Position numbers and translations under genes: made by a program
In this document: positions 10,208 to 49,900 of the stretch, piece after piece
How positions within the stretch are numbered: position 1 is the first letter of the stretch
Layout: every line of letters starts with the position of its first letter
IMG/VR virus record: IMGVR_UViG_3300025759_000110
Coordinates: 1-57,197 of that record
Source: a virus
Taxonomy: Duplodnaviria; Caudoviricetes
Length of the DNA stretch: 57,197 nucleotides
Strand: one strand, 5' to 3'
Notes under the pieces: model-generated
What the model saw: only the letters and a program-made list of their open reading frames with translations
What the model was told of the DNA's origin: nothing
Databases searched by the model: none

Positions 10208-11671
10208 CTAATAATACATCCGCACTCTAGCAGAGTTTTGCTCATCTTCCCAGTCATCTGTTGGTAACTGCACAAAATTTCCTTGCCTATATCGCATAAG
10301 TGCCTGCGTCATGCTGTCAACCAAGTCGTCATGCTCACCATTCGGAAATGCAGCAACCTCCTCAACCAACTCATCCGCCCAAGTCTCGTCGGGGACCCAA
10401 ACCATCCCCGCCTCAAACAAGGGCGACACACTGTGAACCCGCGTCACCTTGTCATTACCTCGACTCGGCGTGAAATTCACAACCGGTATACCCATGTTCC
10501 GCAATTCATGCGTCAAAGGCATACCACTCGCCTTCGCTTCAATTATCACAGTATCCGGTTCCCAAAAATTGTAAAGGTCCAAGGCGCACTGCTTCAATTC
10601 CGGGAAATCCCATCTTCCCTTCTTACTGTCCAAAAGTATCAAGTTAGGACCCGAACCACCTTCATTCGGATAGAATACCCCCCACGTTGTGATAGCCGAG
10701 TAGTCGCTCGTCTCCCGCTTGCTAAACGCCGTATCGTAACTCTGGATAACATACTCCAACTGAGGGACCGTATCCCGCTCCCAAGTCCGCCACCACTCAC
10801 GCTTAATGATCGCGTTCTCCTCACCAGTAGGATTTTGCTGATACTGCGCGTTCCACTTACTCGGAGGAATAGATGCGCGGACCGCGGTCAAATCCTCAAG
10901 GCTCCAAAACTCAGGCCAACACGGAGTCCCATCATCAAAAATTGCCGGTAACTCAACAACCTCCCACTGATCCGCCAACGGGTCCTTTGCCATCGCCCTC
11001 AATAACTGCCCCGTCATGTCCTTCTCAGACCACCTAGTCTGAACCAAAACAATGCTCCCACCCGGCTGCAAACGCTGACGAGGTCCACCCGTGTACCAAT
11101 CCCAAGCATCATCAAAACCACTATTGCTCATAGCAGTCTGCTCCGAATGTGGGTCGTCAATAATCACCAAGTCACCACCACGACCAGCCAAGTTACTCCC
11201 AACACCAACAGCGTAATACATACCACCCTTGTTCGTGTCCCATCGACCACTCGCCTTACTGTCCGCAGCCAGCTTAACCTCCGGGAATATCTCACGATAC
11301 TCGTCGCTCTCAATCAAATTCTTCGTCTTACGACCAAAATTTACCGCCAGCTCAGTCGTGTGCGTCGCCTGAATGATCTTCTTGTTCGGCATACGGCCCA
11401 TGAACCACGCAGGAAACAAATAACTCGCAAACTCACTCTTCGTGTGCCGCGGTGCCATGTTAATAATAAGTCGTTTTAGGTCGCCTTTTGCGACTCTATC
11501 CAACTTTTCAGCAATGATCCGATGATGACGGCCCGCGATGAAGTCAGGCCAAACTGTTTTCACGAAAGTTAAAAAATCATCTTGGCACTTCTCGTTCTTC
11601 TCAAGCTGCGCCAACCGCAGCTCAAGCTTCAATTTCTTCTCTTCTAAAGCAGGATTACTAGCTATATTCAT
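10208..11671 (-). CDS. terL: Terminase large subunit
   Basis: Walker A-like APRHTKS, Walker B IIDDPH, QTRW coupling motif, RNase H-like nuclease (SYDTA...HDDLVDS). Confidence 0.95.
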   Translation of the reverse strand: MNIASNPALEEKKLKLELRLAQLEKNEKCQDDFLTFVKTVWPDFIAGRHHRIIAEKLDRVAKGDLKRLIINMAPRHTKSEFASYLFPAWFMGRMPNKKIIQATHTTELAVNFGRKTKNLIESDEYREIFPEVKLAADSKASGRWDTNKGGMYYAVGVGSNLAGRGGDLVIIDDPHSEQTAMSNSGFDDAWDWYTGGPRQRLQPGGSIVLVQTRWSEKDMTGQLLRAMAKDPLADQWEVVELPAIFDDGTPCWPEFWSLEDLTAVRASIPPSKWNAQYQQNPTGEENAIIKREWWRTWERDTVPQLEYVIQSYDTAFSKRETSDYSAITTWGVFYPNEGGSGPNLILLDSKKGRWDFPELKQCALDLYNFWEPDTVIIEAKASGMPLTHELRNMGIPVVNFTPSRGNDKVTRVHSVSPLFEAGMVWVPDETWADELVEEVAAFPNGEHDDLVDSMTQALMRYRQGNFVQLPTDDWEDEQNSARVRMYY

Positions 11672-12167: not shown

Positions 12168-12193
12168 AAAAAAGGCCCGCACAATGGCGGGCC
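12168..12193 (-). terminator. Intrinsic terminator of cassette 12217..12663
   Basis: GGCCCGC-CATTGT-GCGGGCC followed by T6; identical to 13320-13345. Confidence 0.85.
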
Positions 12194-12216: not shown

Positions 12217-12663
12217 TTATTCTAGCGTTATTTTGAATTTGGCCTCATATTGCATAAATTCGCGCACTGCGTCGTTGATGTCGTCTTCGCTTGGGATATC
12301 GTCAACGCGGTCTTTCATGTCTTCAATGTCGCCTTGCATGTCTTCAAGGCGTTCATCCATCAAACGATTAACCATGCCCTCCAGTTCGGGCCGAATGATT
12401 GACAACAATGCGGCGGCGGCGGCGTCGCGTTGTTCGCAAACGGCGTTGTAATTTGCTTCCCGCGCTTCCGCTCTGGTTTCCATTTCCGCGGCGCGGTCTT
12501 TCCATTTTTGAACGTCCGCGCTTGTTTCGTTGATTGTCTTTTCTAGTGTCCAACCATAATCACGCAAGTTTTTAATATCGTGCGCGGCCATGCGAACATC
12601 CTTTTCCGTAGCGTTGTCAGATAGATTTATAAGTTGATCGGGGTTTGTGTGTAGTTCGATCAT
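12217..12663 (-). CDS. Early cassette gene, coiled-coil hypothetical protein
   Basis: 148 aa with its own promoter, leader hairpin, CTACGGAG RBS and terminator. Confidence 0.75.
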   Translation of the reverse strand: MIELHTNPDQLINLSDNATEKDVRMAAHDIKNLRDYGWTLEKTINETSADVQKWKDRAAEMETRAEAREANYNAVCEQRDAAAAALLSIIRPELEGMVNRLMDERLEDMQGDIEDMKDRVDDIPSEDDINDAVREFMQYEAKFKITLE

Positions 12664-12672
12664 GTCGATTTT

Positions 12673-12742
12673 CTCCGTAGTTAAAGATTAAGGGCTTGCC
12701 CGCCCTGCTGCGATAATATGCGATAACTTTATAAAAAGTAAA
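12673..12742 (-). promoter_or_regulatory. Cassette promoter, leader hairpin and RBS
   Basis: TTTACT-N18-TATTAT, AGGGC-GGGCAA-GCCCT, CTACGGAG; near-identical to 13239-13311. Confidence 0.75.
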
Positions 12743-12750
12743 GTAGGAAC

Positions 12751-12775
12751 AAAAAAGGCGGCCAATGCGGCCGCC
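12751..12775 (-). terminator. Intrinsic terminator of cassette 12801..13229
   Basis: GGCGGCC/GGCCGCC stem followed by T6. Confidence 0.85.
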
Positions 12776-12800
12776 CTCGGTTGTCGTTTGGTGGTCTGGA

Positions 12801-13229
12801 TCAATCGAACCGCGCGACCTTAAAACGCCCTGTTTTTGTCTCGACTACCGCGGCAACGCCGTAATCGTAAACATAACAGAAAAACTTGCCCTCAAAACCG
12901 AACCGCGCAAGCGGTTCCATGTCTGGGTCGTCGTCGTTGGTGGCCTGATAAACGCCGCTATCTGTCACGTGTCCAGACCATGCATATTTAAAACCGCCAA
13001 ACCCGTAGGCCTCATCCATTGCCTCGCAAACGTTCTCTAACGTCTGGGGGATTTCGGTGTTGTTGGTTTCGATACATGCCGCGCAAAAGAAATCGGGAAT
13101 AATCCCGCACGCCTCAATAATATCGGCGGGCACTGCCGCGCCAATGTCAGGGTTGCGGGTGGGATTTAAAACGCGATCAAGCAAAATGTCGCTTGGGCGG
13201 AAATGTGTTTGAATAATATTGGTTGCCAT
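12801..13229 (-). CDS. Early cassette gene, hypothetical protein
   Basis: 142 aa (EACGIIPDFF...YGFGGF...YVYDYG) with its own promoter, RBS and terminator. Confidence 0.8.
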   Translation of the reverse strand: MATNIIQTHFRPSDILLDRVLNPTRNPDIGAAVPADIIEACGIIPDFFCAACIETNNTEIPQTLENVCEAMDEAYGFGGFKYAWSGHVTDSGVYQATNDDDPDMEPLARFGFEGKFFCYVYDYGVAAVVETKTGRFKVARFD

Positions 13230-13238
13230 TGTGTGGCC

Positions 13239-13311
13239 CTCCGTAGGTTAAAGTTAACGAGGCTTGCCCGCCTCATCTGCGACTATATGCGATAACTTTA
13301 TAAAAAGTAAA
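13239..13311 (-). promoter_or_regulatory. Cassette promoter, leader hairpin and RBS
   Basis: TTTACT-N18-TATAGT, GAGGC-GGGCAA-GCCTC, CTACGGAG. Confidence 0.75.
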
Positions 13312-13319
13312 GCCCCAAC

Positions 13320-13345
13320 AAAAAAGGCCCGCACAATGGCGGGCC
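13320..13345 (-). terminator. Intrinsic terminator of cassette 13369..14562
   Basis: Same hairpin and T-tract as 12168-12193. Confidence 0.85.
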
Positions 13346-13368
13346 AGTCTATAAGGCGGGGCGGGTGT

Positions 13369-14562
13369 TTATGCTGTGACCTTGTCCAACAATGCGCCCG
13401 CCTTGCGTTCAACTTCTATCCGCGCGTCCTGATGCGGAACATCGCGGGCAATCGCTGTTATCGCTTGCGCTGCATCCCAAACGGTTTCAACGGGGCGGCC
13501 TTCCTCTTGCAAGTGGCGGGCATTTGCTGCCTTAGCCATGCGACCAGATAGGCCCGCGCGTTTGGTCAAGAAATCCAAACGTTCGTCATCATCCGCCGCA
13601 ATCTTGGCCGCCTTCGCTGCCTCGACCCCTTCGACAAAAGTTGCGGTCGAACCATGTGCGAAACTTTCAAGGGCGGGGCGGGCCTCATATGCAAAGCGAT
13701 CTGGCGCAAATTTTGTGTGACGAATTTTAATTTCTTGGAAATTTTCAACGCCCCATAAATTGCGGTTCATGCAAACGCCACGCAAATACATCGCCGCAAT
13801 GCCCGCGGTTTTGCTGCCTGTTTCGCTGTTCCATGCATAGAACCCGCGGAACATTAAATCAGGTTCGCCGTTCGCAAGCTTGCCGACTTCGATAGGGTTG
13901 CGATCATCCACCAAGAAAACAAAAACATCACGATCCGACGCAAACAAGGTTGTTGTTTCCATGCTCACGGGGATTTCTGGATCATAAACGGCCAAGCCAT
14001 TGCGCGACCCAGTCATCATGCCCGGCACTTTCCAACGGCCGCCGCTTTCCTCAACTAGATTTTTGATCGGTTCCAAAATTTCCCAATCGTAAATCCGCCC
14101 ATAATCTGGACCAGTAGCGGCCCGCAATTCGCCGCCGCCAATATTCTGCGACCCGTATACCTTAATCAATTCTTTGCCGCGGTTGTGACGCAATCCCCAC
14201 TGGATGCAATCCGCCGCAATAGGTGCGGGCAAGTCTTTAAGGTATCCCGCGGGTGCCCCTGCCAGTTGTGAGATTTGACCAAACGACCAATTGGTGGGCG
14301 TATGTAAATGCTCACGGCGGTTGTCATCAGTGTATTCAATAAAGATATTCCCGCGACTGGGGTTGTCGTGATCGACGTCGCCAACAATTTTCATTCGATG
14401 CGTATCGACCACGGTCGATTGCATTTGGCGGGCATCCTGTTTTTTGAACGTCAACATGTCATCCAGTGACAAAAATTTCTGATCGTCTGGACGTGAAAAC
14501 CACTGTGAAGAAACTGCGCTGTTCCCGATTCCATGCGCAAAAGCGTTAGTTGTGTAAGTCAT
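13369..14562 (-). CDS. DUF932-like protein
   Basis: ~397 aa from MTYTTN; SSQWFSRPDD, FASDRDVFVFL, WNSETGSKT, CMNRNLWG and IRHTK motifs recalled from DUF932 proteins of mobile elements. Confidence 0.7.
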   Translation of the reverse strand: MTYTTNAFAHGIGNSAVSSQWFSRPDDQKFLSLDDMLTFKKQDARQMQSTVVDTHRMKIVGDVDHDNPSRGNIFIEYTDDNRREHLHTPTNWSFGQISQLAGAPAGYLKDLPAPIAADCIQWGLRHNRGKELIKVYGSQNIGGGELRAATGPDYGRIYDWEILEPIKNLVEESGGRWKVPGMMTGSRNGLAVYDPEIPVSMETTTLFASDRDVFVFLVDDRNPIEVGKLANGEPDLMFRGFYAWNSETGSKTAGIAAMYLRGVCMNRNLWGVENFQEIKIRHTKFAPDRFAYEARPALESFAHGSTATFVEGVEAAKAAKIAADDDERLDFLTKRAGLSGRMAKAANARHLQEEGRPVETVWDAAQAITAIARDVPHQDARIEVERKAGALLDKVTA

Positions 14563-14570
14563 GTCATTAA

Positions 14571-14650
14571 CTCCGTAGTAAGACAAAATAAAACGGGGCA
14601 GGATTACCCCGCCCCGATGTTATCGCATAAACTCGCATATAATAGCAAGC
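14571..14650 (-). promoter_or_regulatory. Cassette promoter region, leader hairpin (also terminator-like) and CTACGGAG RBS
   Basis: Two TCGCATA boxes 10 bp apart; CGGGGC...GGGTAA...GCCCCG hairpin followed by TTTTATTTT; TGTCTTACTACGGAG. Confidence 0.65.
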
Positions 14651-15361: not shown

Positions 15362-15404
15362 GGTTTGCCCTCCGTAGGTATAAGACATGTCGCATATTAT
15401 AGAA

Positions 15405-15440
15405 CAAAGAAAAGCCCGCGGTCAAGCGGGCTAATTTTTT
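15405..15440. terminator. Bidirectional intrinsic terminator
   Basis: AGCCCGC-GGTCAA-GCGGGCT flanked by A- and T-tracts. Confidence 0.75.
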
Positions 15441-16525: not shown

Positions 16526-16551
16526 CTCATTTCCTCCGTAATTTAAAGAGA

Positions 16552-17031
16552 CTATGCGATGTTATGCGATCCTATGGGACTAATCAAGTCAAAAATTACA
16601 TTCCAGTCTGGATCACCCTCACACTCGAATAAAGGCTCAACGTCTAAACCCTCCAGCTTCAAATCCATTGCTGCGTTTGCAGGATACAAAAATACTTTTT
16701 GCGGCATCTTTTTGGTTTTCTTTTTCAGGACCAAAACCCACGCACTGGCATGAGCATGGTTAGAAAGCCACGCGACTTGGTGCGGACGCAGATCGACTGC
16801 ACGACCACCTGTCGCTTTCAATTCTACAAAGTGAAAGTCGCCTTCTTCGTCACACAACAAAACATCAGGAACCCCGGGCATCGCCCACGTTTCAAGCCTA
16901 GTTGGGATGATCTTCCTCGTAGTCTTCTCCAGCCCCGTCTTCATCATTCGCCAGAAGTCTGACTCTCGCTTTGTCGCGGTTGCTGGAATTTGTCTGTCCT
17001 TCGGGAGTAACGTCGATAGTGATCGGGGCAT
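16552..17031 (-). CDS. PD-(D/E)XK nuclease (VRR-NUC / Holliday junction resolvase-like)
   Basis: ESDFW...RLE...GVPD...FVELK...LRPHQVAW. Confidence 0.8.
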   Translation of the reverse strand: MPRSLSTLLPKDRQIPATATKRESDFWRMMKTGLEKTTRKIIPTRLETWAMPGVPDVLLCDEEGDFHFVELKATGGRAVDLRPHQVAWLSNHAHASAWVLVLKKKTKKMPQKVFLYPANAAMDLKLEGLDVEPLFECEGDPDWNVIFDLISPIGSHNIA

Positions 17032-19936: not shown

Positions 19937-19972
19937 TATGAGATCATATGCGAGGCTATGCGATGTTGTCAA
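19937..19972 (-). promoter_or_regulatory. sigma70-type promoter with three phased operator boxes
   Basis: TTGACA-N18-TATGAT; TCGCATA-GCC-TCGCATA-TGA-TCTCATA. Confidence 0.75.
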
Positions 19973-20256: not shown

Positions 20257-20392
20257 ATACTTTCAACTTTTTTACCTCTGGTTCCAAGGTAGCATCTTTT
20301 TCTACAGCCGTCATTTGTTCATTAACGGCGGCGTTTACTTGACGCACTGCCCAGCCCCAGTCAATTTCGTTCACTCGCTTTTCGGCTTCCAT
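20216..20392 (-). CDS. Hypothetical protein
   Basis: Likely start MEAEKR after GGAGG. Confidence 0.6.
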   Translation of the reverse strand: MEAEKRVNEIDWGWAVRQVNAAVNEQMTAVEKDATLEPEVKKLKVYELEKAWQRILTG

Positions 20393-20586
20393 GTATCTAC
20401 CTCCGCATACCATTTGCCGTTACGGCTTTCACAAACTTGTACGTTAATCCACTCGTCTGTCTGACCCGTGAGCCACGAGGCGAGGTCTTCTCTTTTAATA
20501 CTGAGATTACATTTTATCCAGTCGGGAGCGTTGTCGCGTGGTTTTTTAGCCATGAGGCCATCGACGAAGACTTTTTGATTTTCCAT
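20371..20586 (-). CDS. Conserved phage hypothetical protein
   Basis: 71 aa, AAGGAG RBS, NAPDWIK...KWYAEVDTWKP. Confidence 0.75.
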   Translation of the reverse strand: MENQKVFVDGLMAKKPRDNAPDWIKCNLSIKREDLASWLTGQTDEWINVQVCESRNGKWYAEVDTWKPKSE

Positions 20587-20601
20587 GATTTACTCCTTTG
20601 G

Positions 20602-20682
20602 AAAGAAATGCCCCCAGCCGGGGGCAACCGAACTGGGGGCGATGTCTCTACTACGGAGCGTGGCTTCAAGACCCGAGCCACG
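20602..20682 (-). ncRNA. Putative ~80-nt small RNA antisense to early-gene leaders
   Basis: Promoter TTGATT-N17-TAAAGT (20717-20689), 5' hairpin, unpaired CUCCGUAGUAGAGACAUC, 3' GC hairpin with UUGCCC loop and a U-rich tail. Confidence 0.6.
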
Positions 20683-20720
20683 AGAGAGACTTTACCCCAC
20701 ATATATGCGATAATCAACAC

Positions 20721-20912
20721 TTATTCGCATAGATCGGGTGGAATTTCTGCATTTTCCGCAGAATCTTGGATCACGAGCTTACATGTATTGCACTGCCGTG
20801 TAATCCTTTCTTTATTCATTTCAATGACTTGCAAGTATTGGTCGCATTTCGGGCAATGATTTTTCATCAGACGCTTGTGGACTTCACCCGCGTCGCTGTT
20901 CCAATCGCTCAT
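20721..20912 (-). CDS. Zinc-ribbon protein
   Basis: CPKC...CNTC. Confidence 0.65.
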   Translation of the reverse strand: MSDWNSDAGEVHKRLMKNHCPKCDQYLQVIEMNKERITRQCNTCKLVIQDSAENAEIPPDLCE

Positions 20913-21063: not shown

Positions 21064-21351
21064 AAACTCTTTCTCCAGTTGCCCGGCATGTCTACGATAT
21101 TATAAGATGATATACAAGATTGCAAGAAAAACGGGTGTTTCAATGAGCTATGTACTCTTCGGACAGATGTCTGATCCAAACATTGCCGCGGTCCGCGAAT
21201 ACTTTGATCGTATTGTTGAGGGTGCGATTGGTCGTGCGATTCGGGACAAGTTAGCGCCACCCTAGCGCCACCCGTAAGTCATTGGAAATAAAATCGGAAT
21301 AGTTCTTAGCCGATATAAATGAGGGCAAGTTAGCGCCACCCTCATTTTCCC

Positions 21352-27421: not shown

Positions 27422-27481
27422 TGGTGCCCCCATACGAAAAAAAAGTGGGGTATACACAAGCGTATATACCCCACGTGACAG

Positions 27482-28878: not shown

Positions 28879-28919
28879 TTGACAAAAACAGATAATATCT
28901 TATACTCGGCTCTTGTCAA
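28879..28919. promoter_or_regulatory. Overlapping divergent sigma70 promoters
   Basis: Plus strand TTGACA-N16-TATACT; minus strand TTGACA-N16-TATTAT. Confidence 0.7.
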
Positions 28920-28942
28920 GCAGTAAATTACGGAGAATAAAA

Positions 28943-30391
28943 ATGGGAGGTTTTGAGTTTAAAACCCAGCCTTATCAGCACCAAAGAAATGCACTGAATG
29001 ATTCGTGGGCCGCGGAGTATTATGCGCTTCTGATGGAGATGGGTACAGGCAAATCCAAAGTAGCCGTAGACAACATGGCTATACTATATGAGCGCGGAGA
29101 TATAACCGCTGCATTAGTTATTGCACCAAAAGGCGTGTACGACAACTGGGTAAAAGGAGAAATTCCTACCCACCTACCGGACCGCATTAAGCGCAACGTC
29201 ATGCGCTGGACCCCAAAGAAGACACAACGGTACGAGCAAGAGCTGCGGGACTTTATCTTGAGCAAAGAACCAGAGCTGAAGGTGTTTGTGATGAACGTCG
29301 AGGCGTTCTCTTCGCCCCGTGGCGTGGAAGCAGCGCAGGCTTTTCTGTACCAGAACAAGAAAAACATGGTGATTGTGGACGAAAGCACGACCATCAAGAA
29401 CCGCAAGGCGCAGCGCACAAAGAATATTGTAAAGCTGCGTGAGCTGTCGAAGTATCGTCGCATCCTGACAGGATCACCCATTACAAAGTCGCCAATGGAC
29501 TTGTTTAGCCAGTGTGATTTTTTGGAAGAGAAGTGCCTTGGCTTTAACAGCTACTTTGCTTTCCAAGCCCGGTACGCGAACGTACAAAAGCGCACCATGG
29601 GACACCGCAGTTTCCAACAGATTGTAGGCTACCGTCGGTTAGACGAGCTATCTGACAAGCTGGACCGCTTCAGCAACCGTGTTTTGAAAGAAGACTGTCT
29701 GGACCTGCCAGACAAGGTGTATATACGCCGTGAAGTTCCGTTGACCACGGAGCAGGAGCGTCTGTACGTGCAGATGAAAAAGCTTGCTCTGGCAAAGATG
29801 GAAAGCGGCGAGTTAGCCACGACCGCCAGCGTTTTGACGCAGATCATGCGCTTGCAACAAATCTGTTGTGGTCATTTGGCACCAGATGACGAGGAAATTA
29901 AGCCCATCAAGAATAATCGCTTGGACGACCTGCTTAGTCTGGTTGAGGAAGTGCAAGGCAAGGCGATTATATGGGCTACTTACTCGTATGACATTGAGCT
30001 AATCCGCAAAGAAATTGCCAAGATGTACGGCGAGGACAGTGTGGCGACGTATTATGGGGCGACGCCGCAAGATGAGCGACAAGAGATAGTTCAAAATTTT
30101 CAAAATAAGAACCATCCCTTGCGCTTCTTCATTGGTCAGCCGAAGACGGGCGGATATGGGATTACACTTACTGAGGCCAACACAGTCATATACTACAGCA
30201 ATAGTTATGATTTGGAAATACGTTTGCAGTCCGAAGACCGCGCTCACCGCATTGGTCAGACCAACAAAGTTACCTACATCGATCTGGTGTCCCCAGACAC
30301 CGTAGACGAGAAGGTTCTAGCTGCGCTGCGTCAAAAGATTGATATCGCAGGTCAGGTTTTAGGCGAAGACGCTAAAGATTGGCTTCGTTAA
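28943..30391 (+). CDS. SNF2-family (SF2) helicase
   Basis: EMGTGKS, DES, LTGSP, GGYGITL, QSEDRAHRIGQ; TTACGGAG RBS; the only large plus-strand gene. Confidence 0.92.
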   Translation: MGGFEFKTQPYQHQRNALNDSWAAEYYALLMEMGTGKSKVAVDNMAILYERGDITAALVIAPKGVYDNWVKGEIPTHLPDRIKRNVMRWTPKKTQRYEQELRDFILSKEPELKVFVMNVEAFSSPRGVEAAQAFLYQNKKNMVIVDESTTIKNRKAQRTKNIVKLRELSKYRRILTGSPITKSPMDLFSQCDFLEEKCLGFNSYFAFQARYANVQKRTMGHRSFQQIVGYRRLDELSDKLDRFSNRVLKEDCLDLPDKVYIRREVPLTTEQERLYVQMKKLALAKMESGELATTASVLTQIMRLQQICCGHLAPDDEEIKPIKNNRLDDLLSLVEEVQGKAIIWATYSYDIELIRKEIAKMYGEDSVATYYGATPQDERQEIVQNFQNKNHPLRFFIGQPKTGGYGITLTEANTVIYYSNSYDLEIRLQSEDRAHRIGQTNKVTYIDLVSPDTVDEKVLAALRQKIDIAGQVLGEDAKDWLR

Positions 30392-46960: not shown

Positions 46961-49900
46961 TTATGCACTTTCCAGTGCGGCTAAACGAGCTTCCAACTCA
47001 TCGTTTTTAGCGGATAGCTCTTGAATTGCTTTAATCATGTGCCAAGTAAGTTCGTCTTCTTGAACAGTGTGAATACCTCTGTCGTCTGTTCCGACTGCAC
47101 TTGGTATAACCTGTGCTAACTCTTGAGCTATACAGCCAACCTGAATTCCAGATTTATTTACAGCTATTTGTGTTTTATCATAATCCTGTAGGTCAGGGTC
47201 TGTTATTTCATCAGCCGTTCTATACTCAAAGTTTCTAACCCTGATCTGATTTATTTCGGATAGACCAACAGTGCTGTCCGTGATGTTTTTCTTTATGCGC
47301 TCATCAGAAGTAGTATTCCAAGACGATGTATTGCCTGTGTTATAAACACCTCCACTGCCCACTACTCTAAAAGAGCTATTAGCTGCAAAAGTGCCTACTC
47401 CTGCGCCTAAAGCCACTGCTCCAACACGACTTGTATTGTCTGTGTCAGCATCTTGACCAACACAGACGTTACTGTTTCCACTTATACACAAATCTCCTGC
47501 TTGATACCCTAAGAATGTATTGTAATACCCTTCTACAATAGAAGAACCAGCAGCGTACCCCACAGCCGTGTTGTTCATGTTATTTACAGTTGAACCCGGA
47601 GCATTTTGGCTTTGTAATGCGTAGTTACCAATGGCAACATTGCGACTGCCAACGTCCTCTGCCACCAGAGCATTTCTGCCAATAGCAACATTTAACTCAC
47701 CTAAAGTCATTGACTGCATGGCTTGGAAGCCAACGGCAGTGTTGTCGCTGGCGGTGGTGTTGTTAGTGAGGGCGTTAGAACCAACGGCAACATTGTTATT
47801 ACCTGTTGTGTTGTCATAAAGTGCTACATCACCAATGGCAGTATTGTTTGATGCAGTACTATTAGAGTGTAAAGCATAGTCACCAAATGCTGCGTTATAC
47901 TGACCAGTAGTATTAGAATAAAGGGATTGATACCCAACCGCTGTGTTGGCATTGGCGGTGGTGTTGTTTTGCAAAGCATCACCACCAAGGGCTACGTTAT
48001 AGCTGCCCGTAGTATTATCAAACAAAGACAAAGCACCAACAGCCACGTTATCCGCACCTGATGTGACAACATACATTGCGGCATTACCAACGGCTACGTT
48101 TTCTCCACCTGTTACACCTGCACTATTGCCGCCAAGTGCCAAACGACCAACAGCAACTCCAGATGGGCCTGTTGTTACTCCGTAACCAGCCCTATAGCCA
48201 ACATAAGTTGCTTCTACGTTAGTAGCATTATATCCAGCTTGATAGCCTAAAGCCGTGTTTTCACTTGATGTTCCTATCGTATAAAGTGACTGATACCCAA
48301 CAGCCGTGTTGTAGCTGGCGGTGGTGTTGGAGAATAGTGAACTTTCCCCTACAGCCGTATTATAAGACCCTGTGGAGCCTGTTCTGTAGGCATTTGTACC
48401 GATAGCAACGTTCTGAGTACCAGTAGTATTTCCATGCGCAGCATCTCTACCTACTGCAACGATGTTAGTACCTGAAGTATTACTGTAAGCAGCCTCATAA
48501 CCAACGGCGGTGTTAGTTATTCCATTAGAATTATAAAGAGAACGATAACCTACGGCAGTGCTTAAACCCGCAGTAGTAGCGGAAGCTAAGGCTTGATGCC
48601 CCAATGCTGTATTATATGACGATGTGGTCATAGCAGCAGCAGCATCACGGCCCACTGCTACATTGTAGCCTGCGGTAGTAGTTAATCTCAACGCTGCTAA
48701 ACCAATGGCTACGTTATTTGTGCCTGTAGTATTTGTATAAAGCGCCTGATACCCCACAGCCGTATTGTCGCTGGCGGTGGTGTTACTATATCCCGCCTGA
48801 TAACCCACTGCCGTGTTGTTGCTGGCGGTGGTGTTGGAGAGTAATGCACGGTATCCTAAAGCAGTATTATAACTACCCGTAGTATTAATTCCTAATGAAC
48901 CACTACCAAACGCAGAGTTAAACCCACCTGTCGTATTTGCGGCCATAACCTGATAACCTAGGGCCGCATTGTCCCTACCGCTGGTATTTGCAGCTAAACC
49001 ACTATGTCCGACTACGGTATTTTGTCCTACTCCTGATGCAGACCCACCCATTGTGTTACCGCCAATAGCAATACTTGGCCCAGAAAGTGCAGTTGTTATA
49101 CCTAGTCCCGCTTGATAACCAATTGCAATAGTGCTTGATGCAGTTGTAACATTTTGACCTGCTTGTCTGCCAATAAATGTATTCTGCGCCCCAGTAGTAT
49201 TACTATACCCCGCCCTAAAACCAACAGCGGTGTTATTACCTGCAGTAGTGTTTGAATAAAGACTTTCCATACCCAAAGCTACGTTGTAACTGCCTGTAGA
49301 GTTTGTGTAGAAAGCAAGGCCACCAAGTGCTAAGTTTTGTTCTCCAGTGGTATTACTAAATGCAGCCTGTCGGCCCATAGCCGTGTTGTAGTTTGCGGTG
49401 GTGTTTGCATACAACGACTGATAACCCACTGCCGTGTTGTAGTTGGCGGTGGTGTTAGAACGTAGTGCATCTCGACCCAAGCCTACATTGTATATACCTG
49501 TCGTATTGCTTAATAGAGAACTCACACCAACCGCAGTGTTTTCTCCACCAGTGGTATTTGAGTATAGCGCATTATAGCCATACGCCGTGTTATAATTCCC
49601 AGTCGTACTTGAGAACATAGAAACGTAACCTGCGGAAGTATTGCCGTTGCCTGTAGTATTACTATAACCAGCCTGATACCCAACCGCAGTGTTGTTGCTG
49701 GCGGTGGTGTTGGAGTAGAGGGCACTATCACCTAATGCTGTGTTGTAGTTTCCTGTTGTATTAAGCAGCAACGCCACATATCCGACGCCGGTATTTGAAA
49801 CACCTGTCGTGGTTTGTTGCACTGCATTTGCACCAAAACCTGTGTTTTGAGACCCTGTACTATTGCCATAACCAGTTCTGCGACCAAAATAAGAATTGTT

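What the first reader, a model, noticed from the sequence alone, without database searches (positions are those of the whole stretch)
20602..20717. Candidate phage trans-acting sRNA with two-point antisense complementarity to a family of early-gene leaders
Seen: on the minus strand a TTGATT-N17-TAAAGT promoter precedes an ORF-less ~80-nt unit. It consists of a CGUGGCU/AGCCACG hairpin, an unpaired CUCCGUAGUAGAGACAUC linker, a GCCCCCAG/CUGGGGGC hairpin with a UUGCCC loop, and AUUUCUUU. The linker is the reverse complement of the CUACGGAG box covering the RBS of genes starting at 12663, 13229, 14562 and 15361, and 7/8 matched (UUACGGAG) for 16525 and the SNF2 helicase at 28943. For the DUF932-like gene, pairing extends to 15 bp with one bulge (mRNA UGUCUUACUACGGAG). 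Independently, the UUGCCC loop is complementary to the loops of 5' leader hairpins of three of these mRNAs (GGGCAA at 12696 and 13264; GGGUAA at 14604 via G-U), in the correct antiparallel order. The RHH gene leader (~21078-21084) also carries GGGCAAC. Established: the CUAC part is not explained by 16S anti-SD pairing, and loop-loop kissing followed by RBS occlusion is how many antisense RNAs act. Inference: one phage sRNA silences translation of a dispersed early regulon, as a timing switch, carrier-state control or superinfection immunity. I know of no description of this in such phages.
Basis: partly seen in the sequence, partly recalled or inferred. Interest (0 to 1): 0.88.

Follow-up and report, generated by a model that had tools for sequence, protein, structure and literature searches.

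The report
Phage small RNA matching ribosome sites
A short, conserved, non-coding RNA gene in a family of uncultured marine phages carries two exposed sequences that are the exact complements of the ribosome-binding regions of many of the phage's own genes, so it probably switches their translation off.

Summary
At 20600-20717 (minus strand) a promoter is followed by a 5' hairpin, an unpaired CUCCGUAGU, a terminator hairpin with a UUGCCC loop, and a U-run. There is no Rfam match.

A covariance model finds one copy in the window and in 57 of 79 related phage contigs. Both hairpins show compensatory changes, while the linker and the loop hardly vary.

The complement, (A)ACUACGGAG(G), forms the Shine-Dalgarno region of promoter-proximal genes in the window and throughout the relatives. 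A second site class, GGGGGCAA, lies in leader hairpin loops and in the primase, SNF2 and DUF7227 start regions. It matches the terminator loop.

Two variant clades change seed and box together. Two others do not, and two further co-variation tests were weak.

In other clades a new promoter follows the RNA, so there it is a stand-alone unit.

My best reading, at about 0.6, is a trans-acting anti-Shine-Dalgarno sRNA with two seeds. No expression or repression data could be obtained. I class it as a new variant of a known kind.

The parts
20704..20731 (-). Operator-like inverted repeat TATGCGAA-N-ATCGCATA spanning the -35 hexamer. The same ATCGCATA-type boxes sit at the other promoters of this gene block.
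   Evidence: Sequence. TATCGCATA with up to 1 mismatch occurs 17 times against 10.3 expected, with copies at 12717, 13286, 14621, 15388, 16553, 16563, 19957 and 20704. TATGCGATTAAGTGTTGC-ATATCGCATA is conserved in relatives.
20689..20717 (-). Sigma-70-like promoter: TTGATT, 17 nt, TAAAGT. The predicted start lies about 7 nt downstream, at the foot of hairpin 1.
   Evidence: Sequence. It matches 8 of 12 consensus positions and was not listed. Relatives have TTGCAT/TTGCTT and TATAGT/TATAAT/TATACT at the same place, 6-7 nt before hairpin 1.
20659..20682 (-). Hairpin 1, the 5' stem-loop (CGUGGCU ... AGCCACG).
   Evidence: Folds. In all 37 versions folded singly, a helix ends within 3 nt of the box. 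The stem sequences differ between clades. In the model-fitted alignment this helix has 6 of 7 pairs with changes on both sides, but only 70.7% of cells are paired because the register shifts.
20650..20658 (-). Seed 1: unpaired CUCCGUAGU, complementary to the (A)CUACGGAG ribosome-site boxes.
   Evidence: It is unpaired in the fold from the predicted start. T33 and G36-G39 of the box are invariant and C32, C34 and C35 are nearly invariant across 37 versions. The box variants in this set are CUUCGUAG, CUCUGUAG and AUCCGUAG.
20610..20640 (-). Hairpin 2, a terminator-like stem. It has an outer stem of 7-8 bp, an inner stem of 3 bp, and a UUGCCC loop at 20622-20627 (seed 2).
   Evidence: Terminator scan. 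Seven of 10 pairs show compensatory changes. Helices 2 and 3 are 98.3% and 97.6% paired. The loop letters are invariant in A1.
20600..20609 (-). U-rich tail (AUUUCUUUCC) after hairpin 2.
   Evidence: Sequence. Most relatives have a T-run here, but it is weak in L007/L008/L009, which read CACCTCGTTT.
20371..20599 (-). Downstream gene (71 aa, no family match). Its AAAGGAG ribosome site starts directly after the tail and it has no promoter of its own.
   Evidence: Its ribosome site lacks the CUAC extension in 20 of 20 distinct upstream regions from loci with the canonical element.
12673..12706 (-). Leader of gene 12663: a hairpin with a GGGCAA loop (12691-12706) and a CUACGGAG box (12673-12680).
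13239..13274 (-). Leader of gene 13229: a hairpin with a GGGCAA loop (loop at 13264-13269) and a CUACGGAG box (13239-13246). It is a near copy of the 12663 promoter-leader cassette.
   Evidence: The reverse complement gives a weak hit to the RNA model at 13204-13297 (17.9 bits).
14571..14586 (-). Ribosome-site region of the DUF932 gene (start 14562): UGUCUUACUACGGAG. This is the longest complement to the linker.
   Evidence: -24.1 kcal/mol.
15365..15377 (-). Ribosome-site region of the DUF7227 gene (start 15361): CUACGGAGGGCAA, with both site types abutting.
16534..16541 (-). UUACGGAG at the ribosome site of gene 16525.
28928..28935 (+). UUACGGAG at the ribosome site of the SNF2-type helicase gene (start 28943).
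   Evidence: Relatives mostly have GGGGCAA there instead.
27425..27431 (-). GGGGGCA in the start region of the primase gene (ATG 27421). It is complementary to UGCCCCC of the terminator loop.
   Evidence: The motif is present in 13 of 16 distinct primase upstream regions in loci with the canonical element, against 6 of 31 in others.
21078..21084 (-). GGGCAAC in the leader of the ribbon-helix-helix gene (start 21063).
   Evidence: There is a weak RHH_5 match.

Best explanation
The locus is a gene for a small non-coding RNA of about 80 nt. It has its own sigma-70-type promoter and an intrinsic terminator.

The RNA starts with a stem-loop and then exposes CUCCGUAGU (seed 1). It ends in a terminator hairpin whose apical loop region exposes GUUGCCCCC (seed 2).

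Seed 1 pairs with the (A)ACUACGGAG(G) box that forms the Shine-Dalgarno region of promoter-proximal phage genes. Seed 2 pairs with GGGCAA hairpin loops in the same leaders, and with GGGGGCAA-type Shine-Dalgarno regions of other genes (primase, SNF2 helicase, DUF7227, RHH).

Pairing covers the ribosome site, so translation of these mRNAs would fall as the RNA accumulates.

Shown: the conserved structured unit, the complementarity and its conservation, and partial co-variation.

Inferred: the transcript ends, pairing in the cell, the direction of the effect (repression), and the timing role.
For: 1. Real conserved unit. There is one strong model hit (56.8-90.4 bits) in the window and in 57 of 79 related loci, with two weaker hits. 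A pattern scan found at least 118 stretches in viral contigs. Stems vary with compensation while the seed and loop are nearly fixed. In the model-fitted alignment 87.0% of cells pair, against 71.9% in shuffles (0 of 500 reached the observed value) and 40-48% with slid partners.

2. Seed exposure. CUCCGUAGU is unpaired in the fold from the predicted start.

3. Targets. The box is enriched and sits at ribosome sites in the window. It is conserved at orthologous leaders: DUF932 in 8 of 10 distinct upstream regions. Internal or control genes g17031 and g28839 show 0 of 27 and 0 of 32.

4. Self-exclusion. The element's own downstream ribosome site lacks the CUAC extension (0 of 20).

5. Two-site colinear complementarity. 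The reverse complements of leaders give weak hits to the RNA model. A pattern written from the RNA picks up the antisense of leaders (L184, L169, L173, L254). GGGCAA loops have covarying stems in several leader families.

6. Second site class. It tracks the canonical loop: primase 13 of 16 against 6 of 31; SNF2 6 of 15 against 2 of 20; DUF7227 9 of 10 against 0 of 2; RHH 9 of 36 against 1 of 61.

7. Co-variation. L117/L119/L120 have the seed (C)UCCCGUAG and boxes CUA(C/U)GGGAG. L039/L090 have the seed CCUUCGUAGUUGAA with leaders AGCUACGAAGG and UUCAACUAUGGAGG. Own seeds bind their own leaders better. On L120 leaders they give -20.0 to -21.5, against -11.8 to -19.0 for main-type seeds. On L090 leaders they give -16.6, against -6.0 to -11.2 for all other seeds.

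8. Stand-alone units. In L075/L093, L058, L065, L117, L119/L120 and the L068 group, a new promoter follows the terminator.
Against: No transcript evidence was obtained. The single RNA run holds assembled contigs, which cannot show ends or strand, and no listed piece covers the element.

Co-variation is partial. The CUCCAUG clade (L093) and the CUCUGUAG clade (L085, L055) show no preference for their own seed. Complementarity beyond the 8-nt core is hardly longer for own pairs than for cross pairs: 1.59 against 1.24 nt. G-U-compatible mismatches do not significantly exceed A-C ones in the core: 36 against 28, p = 0.19.

In the window-wide duplex scan the leaders rank high but are mixed with non-leader sites.

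The sequences are related, so the shuffle controls overstate significance.

In the main clade the next gene has no promoter of its own, so a cis role as a leader or terminator cannot be separated from a trans role.

The U-run is weak in some relatives (L007-L009).

The host, and whether it has an RNA chaperone, is unknown. In the genome scan 0 of 80 held loci carried the element.
Confidence: 0.6

Rival explanations
1. Cis-acting leader only. The unit is the 5' leader and attenuator of the downstream operon (genes from 20586 on), and also the terminator of the RHH/zinc-ribbon operon upstream. The conserved linker and loop are contacts for a factor that controls read-through, or an anti-Shine-Dalgarno for the gene's own ribosome site. 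The match to other leaders has no function.
For: In the window and the main clade the ribosome site of the next gene begins about 10 nt after the terminator and no promoter intervenes. No terminator separates the upstream operon from the unit. CUCC could pair with the GGAG of the downstream ribosome site.
Against: In at least four other clades the RNA unit is followed by a fresh promoter, so it is not the leader of the next gene. Own-site pairing would be only 4 bp, and the downstream site never carries the CUAC extension. This model does not explain why the 4-5 nt after CUCC and the loop match remote ribosome sites, nor why they change with them in two clades.
Confidence: 0.17
2. Protein-site model. 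CTACGGAG (and GGGGCAA) are recognition sites of a phage protein that binds DNA or RNA. The copy in the element is one more site that happens to be inverted. Sites change together because they follow the protein.
For: Concerted change of all sites in a clade is also expected for protein sites. A ribbon-helix-helix gene and a zinc-ribbon gene lie directly upstream. The wobble test that could separate RNA pairing from DNA identity was not significant.
Against: In targets the box is always in the sense orientation and its GGAG serves as the Shine-Dalgarno, 5-9 nt before the start. The single inverted copy lies in an exposed stretch between two covarying hairpins of a terminated unit. An RNA-binding protein would not recognise the complement. 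In L039 the element and the leader differ at two positions on the DNA level, yet both differences give G-U pairs over 14 nt. A separate operator-like motif (ATCGCATA) already marks these promoters.
Confidence: 0.1
3. Relic. The unit is an inverted, degenerate copy of a promoter-leader cassette. It acts as a terminator and has no regulatory pairing.
For: The reverse complements of leaders resemble the unit enough to give weak model hits. Promoter-leader cassettes are duplicated in this genome (12663 and 13229).
Against: The order of the two motifs is that of an antiparallel partner, and they are kept nearly invariant while the flanking stems drift across contigs with 81-94% polymerase identity. 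A relic would decay in the unpaired parts first.
Confidence: 0.05

Closest known systems
c4 antisense RNA of phages P1 and P7
   Same: It is a phage-encoded RNA of about 77 nt that does not overlap its target. It pairs through short complementary stretches, thought to lie in loops, with the region around a ribosome-binding site and blocks translation (review PMC12197685, passages read).
   Different: c4 has one target operon (ant). From my own recall, it is cut out of the same transcript that it controls. Here the RNA has its own promoter and terminator, and several to many dispersed targets in two site classes. No Rfam family matched, and I recall that Rfam holds a C4 family.
sar RNA of phage P22
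   Same: It is a small phage RNA (68/69 nt) that pairs with the ant mRNA and interferes with translation initiation (review PMC12197685, passage read). From recall, the P22 region also encodes ribbon-helix-helix repressors (Arc, Mnt), as an RHH gene lies upstream here.
   Different: From recall, sar is transcribed from the opposite strand of its own target. Here the targets lie 4-8 kb away on the same strand, or on the other strand for SNF2.
VpdS of vibriophage VP882 and PreS of lambda (trans-acting phage sRNAs)
   Same: They are phage-encoded, trans-acting base-pairing sRNAs. VpdS shifts phage and host mRNA levels and competes for Hfq (review PMC12197685, passage read).
   Different: As described in that passage, those act largely on host RNAs or host genes. 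Here the evident targets are the phage's own leaders, which carry a shared tag at the ribosome site. No sequence relation was tested.
RegA translational repressor of phage T4 (from recall, no call)
   Same: The logic is the same: one phage product binds the start regions of many earlier phage mRNAs and shuts their translation off.
   Different: RegA is a protein. Here the proposed effector is an RNA that recognises its targets by base pairing.
Bacterial sRNAs that use C-rich loops or terminator loops
   Same: E. coli SdsR, RseX and ArrS need the loops of their intrinsic terminators to repress fepA, and the 5' part of SdsR pairs with the start region (PMC11979758, abstract and section headings seen). 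From recall, C-rich loops of RsaE/RoxS pair with Shine-Dalgarno sequences.
   Different: In the fepA case the authors' heading says the loops act 'likely without base-pairing'. Here the loop is complementary to 6-10 nt of its proposed targets.

Membership tests
Any described RNA family (Rfam 15, including phage antisense RNAs) | Score at or above the family's gathering threshold | tested here: not met
   There were 0 matches in the whole window at gathering thresholds. In 20500-20800 at E up to 10, the only match was a chance snoRNA hit at 12.5 bits against a threshold of 70.
Trans-encoded base-pairing sRNA (functional class) | Own promoter and intrinsic terminator, no conserved ORF | tested here: met
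   Promoter hexamers and the terminator are conserved in position. In several clades a new promoter follows. Loop and linker lengths vary among versions. Coding potential was not tested formally.
Trans-encoded base-pairing sRNA (functional class) | Conserved single-stranded seed complementary to several unlinked mRNAs | tested here: met
Trans-encoded base-pairing sRNA (functional class) | Discrete transcript detected; regulation lost by seed mutation and restored by a compensatory change | not testable with these tools
   Only contigs of one RNA run were available. No experiments were possible.
Trans-encoded base-pairing sRNA (functional class) | Seed and target sites co-vary between lineages | tested here: inconclusive
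   Own-seed preference was seen in 2 of 4 variant clades. The extension and wobble tests were weak.
Cis-encoded antisense RNA (sar/OOP type) | Transcribed from the strand opposite its target, overlapping it | tested here: not met
   Nothing on the plus strand opposite 20600-20717 carries a box-bearing gene start. The targets lie at 12.6-16.5 kb, 27.4 kb and 28.9 kb.
Transcription attenuator / regulated leader | Lies between a promoter and the gene it controls, with the terminator before the ribosome site | tested here: inconclusive
   Met in the window and the main clade. Not met in L075/L093, L058, L065, L117, L119/L120 and the L068 group, where a promoter follows. I did not search for a conserved alternative (antiterminator) fold.

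The most novel reading that the evidence does not exclude
The RNA is a global, RNA-based translational shut-off of the phage's own replication and accessory genes, doing by base pairing what RegA does as a protein in T4.

It uses two seeds that read two interchangeable address tags built into Shine-Dalgarno regions: CUACGGAG and GGGGGCAA. Orthologous genes switch between the two tags. For example, SNF2 has UUACGGAG in the window and GGGGCAA in relatives.

The neighbouring RHH repressor is itself a target. RNA and repressor would then form a mixed feedback loop that times the infection programme in a widespread group of marine phages.
Probability: 0.3. Interest if true: 0.8.

Novelty: new variant of a known kind. 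Interest (0 to 1): 0.64.

Why it matters
Few phage-encoded RNAs are known to regulate phage genes, and the classic ones (c4, sar, OOP) each act on one neighbouring target. Here one small RNA appears to address a whole set of dispersed phage mRNAs through a tag built into their ribosome-binding sites.

These come from an uncultured marine phage group distantly related to pelagiphage HTVC023P: 50.6% polymerase identity, and 58.2% to phage DSL-LC04.

If confirmed, it would be an RNA counterpart of protein translational repressors. It would give a compact, portable pair of tag and RNA for controlling translation. It would also give a handle on gene timing in phages that cannot yet be grown.

Tried and rejected
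Expression. The look-up of sequencing runs gave one RNA run (X1, share 0.07) and DNA or unknown runs. Read laying showed only contigs of relatives, and no listed piece covers the element. Contigs cannot show starts, ends or strand, so this says nothing either way.

Host or prophage. The pattern scan of bacterial and archaeal genomes gave 120 stretches. The RNA model hit 0 of the 80 held loci, so I treat them as chance matches of an 18-base pattern in a very large collection.

Nearest cultured relative. Phage DSL-LC04 (L082, 58.2% polymerase identity) has the same gene order but no model hit at E up to 1.

DNA similarity. The megablast search against phage records found nothing.

Co-variation beyond the core was weak: 1.59 nt for own pairs against 1.24 nt for cross pairs.

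The wobble-versus-A-C test gave 45 against 25 in 12-13-nt windows. With a looser filter on the core it gave 36 against 28 (p = 0.19), and many plain GGAG sites that are probably not targets entered that count.

The MAFFT alignment did not put hairpin 1 in one register, so RNAalifold missed it. I used single-sequence folds and a model-fitted alignment, which leans towards the model's structure.

My rule-of-thumb sorting of the viral pattern hits into RNA units and antisense leaders made errors both ways, so I give no counts from it.

Literature. Searches for the motif letters, for phage sRNA with anti-Shine-Dalgarno, for HTVC023P, for c4 and for trans-acting phage sRNA found no description of this element. 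Only listings were seen, except for the passages read from PMC12197685 and the abstract and outline of PMC11979758. Supplementary files were not opened.

I did not use the protein-search, structure-prediction or complex tools, because the finding is an RNA.
Full report
WHAT THE WINDOW IS

The window is a complete 57,197-base virus record. Its DNA polymerase is 58.2% identical to that of phage DSL-LC04 (host given as Gammaproteobacteria) and 50.6% identical to that of Pelagibacter phage HTVC023P. A megablast search of phage records found nothing closer.

Most genes run on the minus strand. In order, they are:
- a replication block (28839 down to 21428: primase, helicase, polymerase);
- a ribbon-helix-helix gene (21063) and a zinc-ribbon ORF (20912);
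- the element (20600-20717);
- a run of small genes;
- a set of single genes, each with its own promoter and terminator (16525, 15361 DUF7227, 14562 DUF932, 13229, 12663);
- a 487-aa ORF (10208-11671), which I take by eye to be the terminase large subunit; it was not scanned against any family library.

THE OBSERVATION

- CTACGGAG is enriched: 5 copies against 0.97 expected. Four copies lie on the minus strand 5-9 nt before start codons. The fifth is the complement inside the element.
- With a Y in first place there are 8 copies against 2.34 expected. Two of the added copies are ribosome sites (16525 and SNF2). One, at 48178, lies inside a coding region.
- From the predicted start, the RNA folds into hairpin 1, nine free bases (CUCCGUAGU), and hairpin 2. 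The A-rich part of the linker pairs with the U-run.
- If transcription came from upstream instead, the extra 5' bases would pair with part of the linker.
- One sub-claim fails. In the 14562 leader, GGGUAA is not a loop, because GGG sits in a 10-pair stem.
- GGGCAA as a bare hexamer is not enriched. What counts is where it sits.

IS THE UNIT REAL?

Searching with the polymerase gave 80 related contigs with 81-94% protein identity, plus L037, which is 100% identical over the part it covers.
- The intergenic unit is recognisable by blastn in 50 of them.
- I aligned 37 distinct versions (A1) and built a covariance model from them.
- The model finds exactly one strong copy (56.8-90.4 bits) in the window and in 57 of 79 related loci. 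L027 and L074 score lower, and DSL-LC04 gives no hit.
- Many loci without a hit end within a few hundred bases of the polymerase gene.

The structure evidence is as follows.
- Hairpin 2 has 7 of 10 pairs with changes on both sides.
- The inner stem changes from CGG/CCG to CGC/GCG, UGG/CCA and CUC/GAG, while the UUGCCC loop stays fixed.
- Hairpin 1 differs in sequence from clade to clade, but in all 37 single folds a helix ends within 3 nt of the box. In L012, L015 and L017 the partner strand reaches into the -10 region.
- On a model-fitted alignment of 42 versions, 87.0% of cells pair. Shuffles give 71.9% (0 of 500 reach the observed value) and slid partners give 40-48%. This alignment leans towards the model, and the sequences are related.
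- The -10 hexamer ends 6-7 nt before hairpin 1 in the relatives.
- No Rfam family matches.

I therefore regard the conserved, structured, promoter-to-terminator unit as established at the sequence level.

THE PARTNERS

The complement of the linker is not peculiar to this window.
- In the relatives, (A)ACUACGGAG(G) sits 5-9 nt before the start codon of the first gene behind promoters that carry ATCGCATA-type boxes.
- By orthologue, the DUF932 gene has the box in 8 of 10 distinct upstream regions.
- Two control genes have it in 0 of 27 and 0 of 32: g17031 (internal) and g28839 (a promoter-proximal replication gene).
- The gene behind the element has it in 0 of 20 regions from loci that carry the canonical element.

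GGGCAA hexaloops, closed by stems that covary (GGGGC/GCCCC, GAAGC/GCTTC, AGGGC/GCCCT, CGGC/GCCG, GGGAC/GTCCC), lie upstream of boxes in several leader families.

GGGGGCA(A)(C) also forms the Shine-Dalgarno region of several genes in the relatives:
- primase: UUCCGUAUGGGGGCAACAAUG;
- SNF2: AAUAGGGGCAAAAAUG;
- DUF7227: AACUAUGGGGGCAACCAUG, a 10-nt complement of GGUUGCCCCC.

It also occurs in many RHH leaders. In the window the primase start region reads UAUGGGGGCACCAAUG.

These motifs occur mainly where the canonical loop is present:

| Gene | Loci with canonical element | Other loci |
|---|---|---|
| primase | 13 of 16 | 6 of 31 |
| SNF2 | 6 of 15 | 2 of 20 |
| DUF7227 | 9 of 10 | 0 of 2 |
| RHH | 9 of 36 | 1 of 61 |

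The 'other' group includes contigs that end before the element, and the comparison is confounded by relatedness.

The two-site match is strong enough to show up in two independent ways. The reverse complements of leaders give weak hits to the RNA model. A pattern written from the RNA also picks up the antisense strand of leaders in other contigs.

CO-VARIATION

The seed is almost invariant in the main clade, so only divergent clades are informative. A second polymerase search added 69 loci, of which 11 have a model hit. At the same genomic place other clades carry analogous terminated units with other seeds.

Clades that support co-variation:
- L117, L119 and L120 have the seed (C)UCCCGUAGUU. 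Their leaders read AACUA(C/U)GGGAG, so one extra C in the seed matches one extra G in the box.
- L039/L042/L044/L090 have the seed CCUUCGUAGUUGAA. One leader reads AGCUACGAAGG, an exact compensatory change. Another reads UUCAACUAUGGAGG, giving 14 pairs with two wobbles.
- In a seed-by-leader duplex matrix, own seeds beat foreign seeds for these two clades.

Evidence that does not support it:
- The CUCCAUG clade and the CUCUGUAG clade show no own-seed preference.
- Complementarity beyond the 8-nt core is barely longer for own than for cross pairs.
- The wobble test is not significant.

I count co-variation as suggestive, not proven.

CIS OR TRANS

In the window and the main clade the next gene's ribosome site follows the terminator directly, so a leader or attenuator role is possible there. 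In L075/L093, L058, L065, L117, L119/L120 and the L068 group, a new promoter follows the terminator. There the RNA is a stand-alone product. This, together with the absence of the box from the element's own downstream ribosome site, favours a trans role. The two roles may coexist.

MECHANISM

I propose the following steps.
1. The RNA is made from a promoter of the same operator family as its targets.
2. Seed 1 pairs with the box, giving 8-16 bp that include GGAG.
3. In the 12663/13229-type leaders the terminator loop can kiss the GGGCAA loop in antiparallel, colinear order.
4. At GGGGGCAA-type start regions the loop region itself would cover the ribosome site.
5. Ribosome access falls.

Only the complementarity and its conservation are shown. 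Transcript ends, pairing in the cell, the sign of the effect and its timing are inferred. 'Early' is not established for the targets. They are promoter-proximal genes lying between the replication block and the ORF I take to be the terminase gene, plus replication genes.

COMPARISON WITH KNOWN SYSTEMS AND NOVELTY

The closest known cases are c4 of P1/P7 and sar of P22 (review PMC12197685, passages read). A role for the terminator loops of E. coli sRNAs has also been reported (PMC11979758, abstract and section headings seen).

The element is not a member of any Rfam family, and it is not a cis-antisense RNA. My literature searches found no description of it.

I class it as a new variant of a known kind: a base-pairing translational repressor RNA, here with two anti-Shine-Dalgarno seeds and a genome-wide tag in the phage's own leaders.

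VERDICT

| Claim | Estimate |
|---|---|
| The unit is a real conserved RNA element | confidence about 0.9 |
| It acts in trans on the tagged ribosome sites | about 0.6 |
| Interest | 0.64 |

Noticed in passing
window 12713-12742, 13282-13311, 14621-14640, 15388-15425, 16553-16571, 19957-19972, 20704-20731, 21095-21125 (minus strand): The promoters of this gene block share ATCGCATA-type boxes. Target promoters have two direct copies 10 bp apart over the -10/+1 region. The element's promoter has an inverted pair around the -35. This is probably the operator of a phage repressor, and the RHH protein encoded just upstream is a candidate.
   Followed up: partly
window 12680-12690 and 13246-13258 (minus strand): The leaders of 12663 and 13229 read UUAAUCUUUAA and UUAACUUUAA just before the box. 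From recall, the second is the 'epsilon' translation-enhancer sequence of the T7 gene 10 leader.
   Followed up: no
window 12640-12800 and 13205-13370; terminators at 12174-12193 and 13326-13345: The promoter, hairpin and box cassettes of genes 12663 and 13229 are near copies of each other. The two terminators GGCCCGCCATTGTGCGGGCC are identical. This is a duplicated expression cassette around unrelated small genes.
   Followed up: no
window 27425-27440; L008, L014, L021 and others: The primase start region reads UUUCGUAUGGGGGCA in the window and UUCCGUA(G/U)GGGGGCAAC in relatives. In the relatives it carries CCGUAG in the same sense as seed 1, next to the complement of seed 2. The same-sense part is unexplained.
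   Followed up: no
L068:2639-2790, L071:5451-5610, L078:8134-8285, L089:3973-4130: A more distant clade has a different terminated RNA at the same place. It has no CUCC seed after the 5' hairpin. Its terminator loop reads UUCCUCCCUGU, which contains the canonical anti-Shine-Dalgarno CCUCC. Loops in L119 (CCUCC) and L075 (UUCUCC) are also pyrimidine-rich.
   Followed up: partly
L013:6536, L014:8943: In these relatives a second CUCCGUAG lies at the very start of the leader of the helix-turn-helix gene (orthologue of window 19925), right after an ATCGCATA-type promoter.
   Followed up: no
window 28879-28919: Two strong back-to-back promoter matches (each 11 of 12) lie between the SNF2 gene (plus strand) and the replication block (minus strand). 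This is a divergent control region.
   Followed up: no
L037 (IMG/VR contig of 10,478 bases): This contig from another sample is 100% identical to the window over the polymerase part it covers and over the 201 bases around the element. The same or a nearly identical phage was therefore assembled twice.
   Followed up: no
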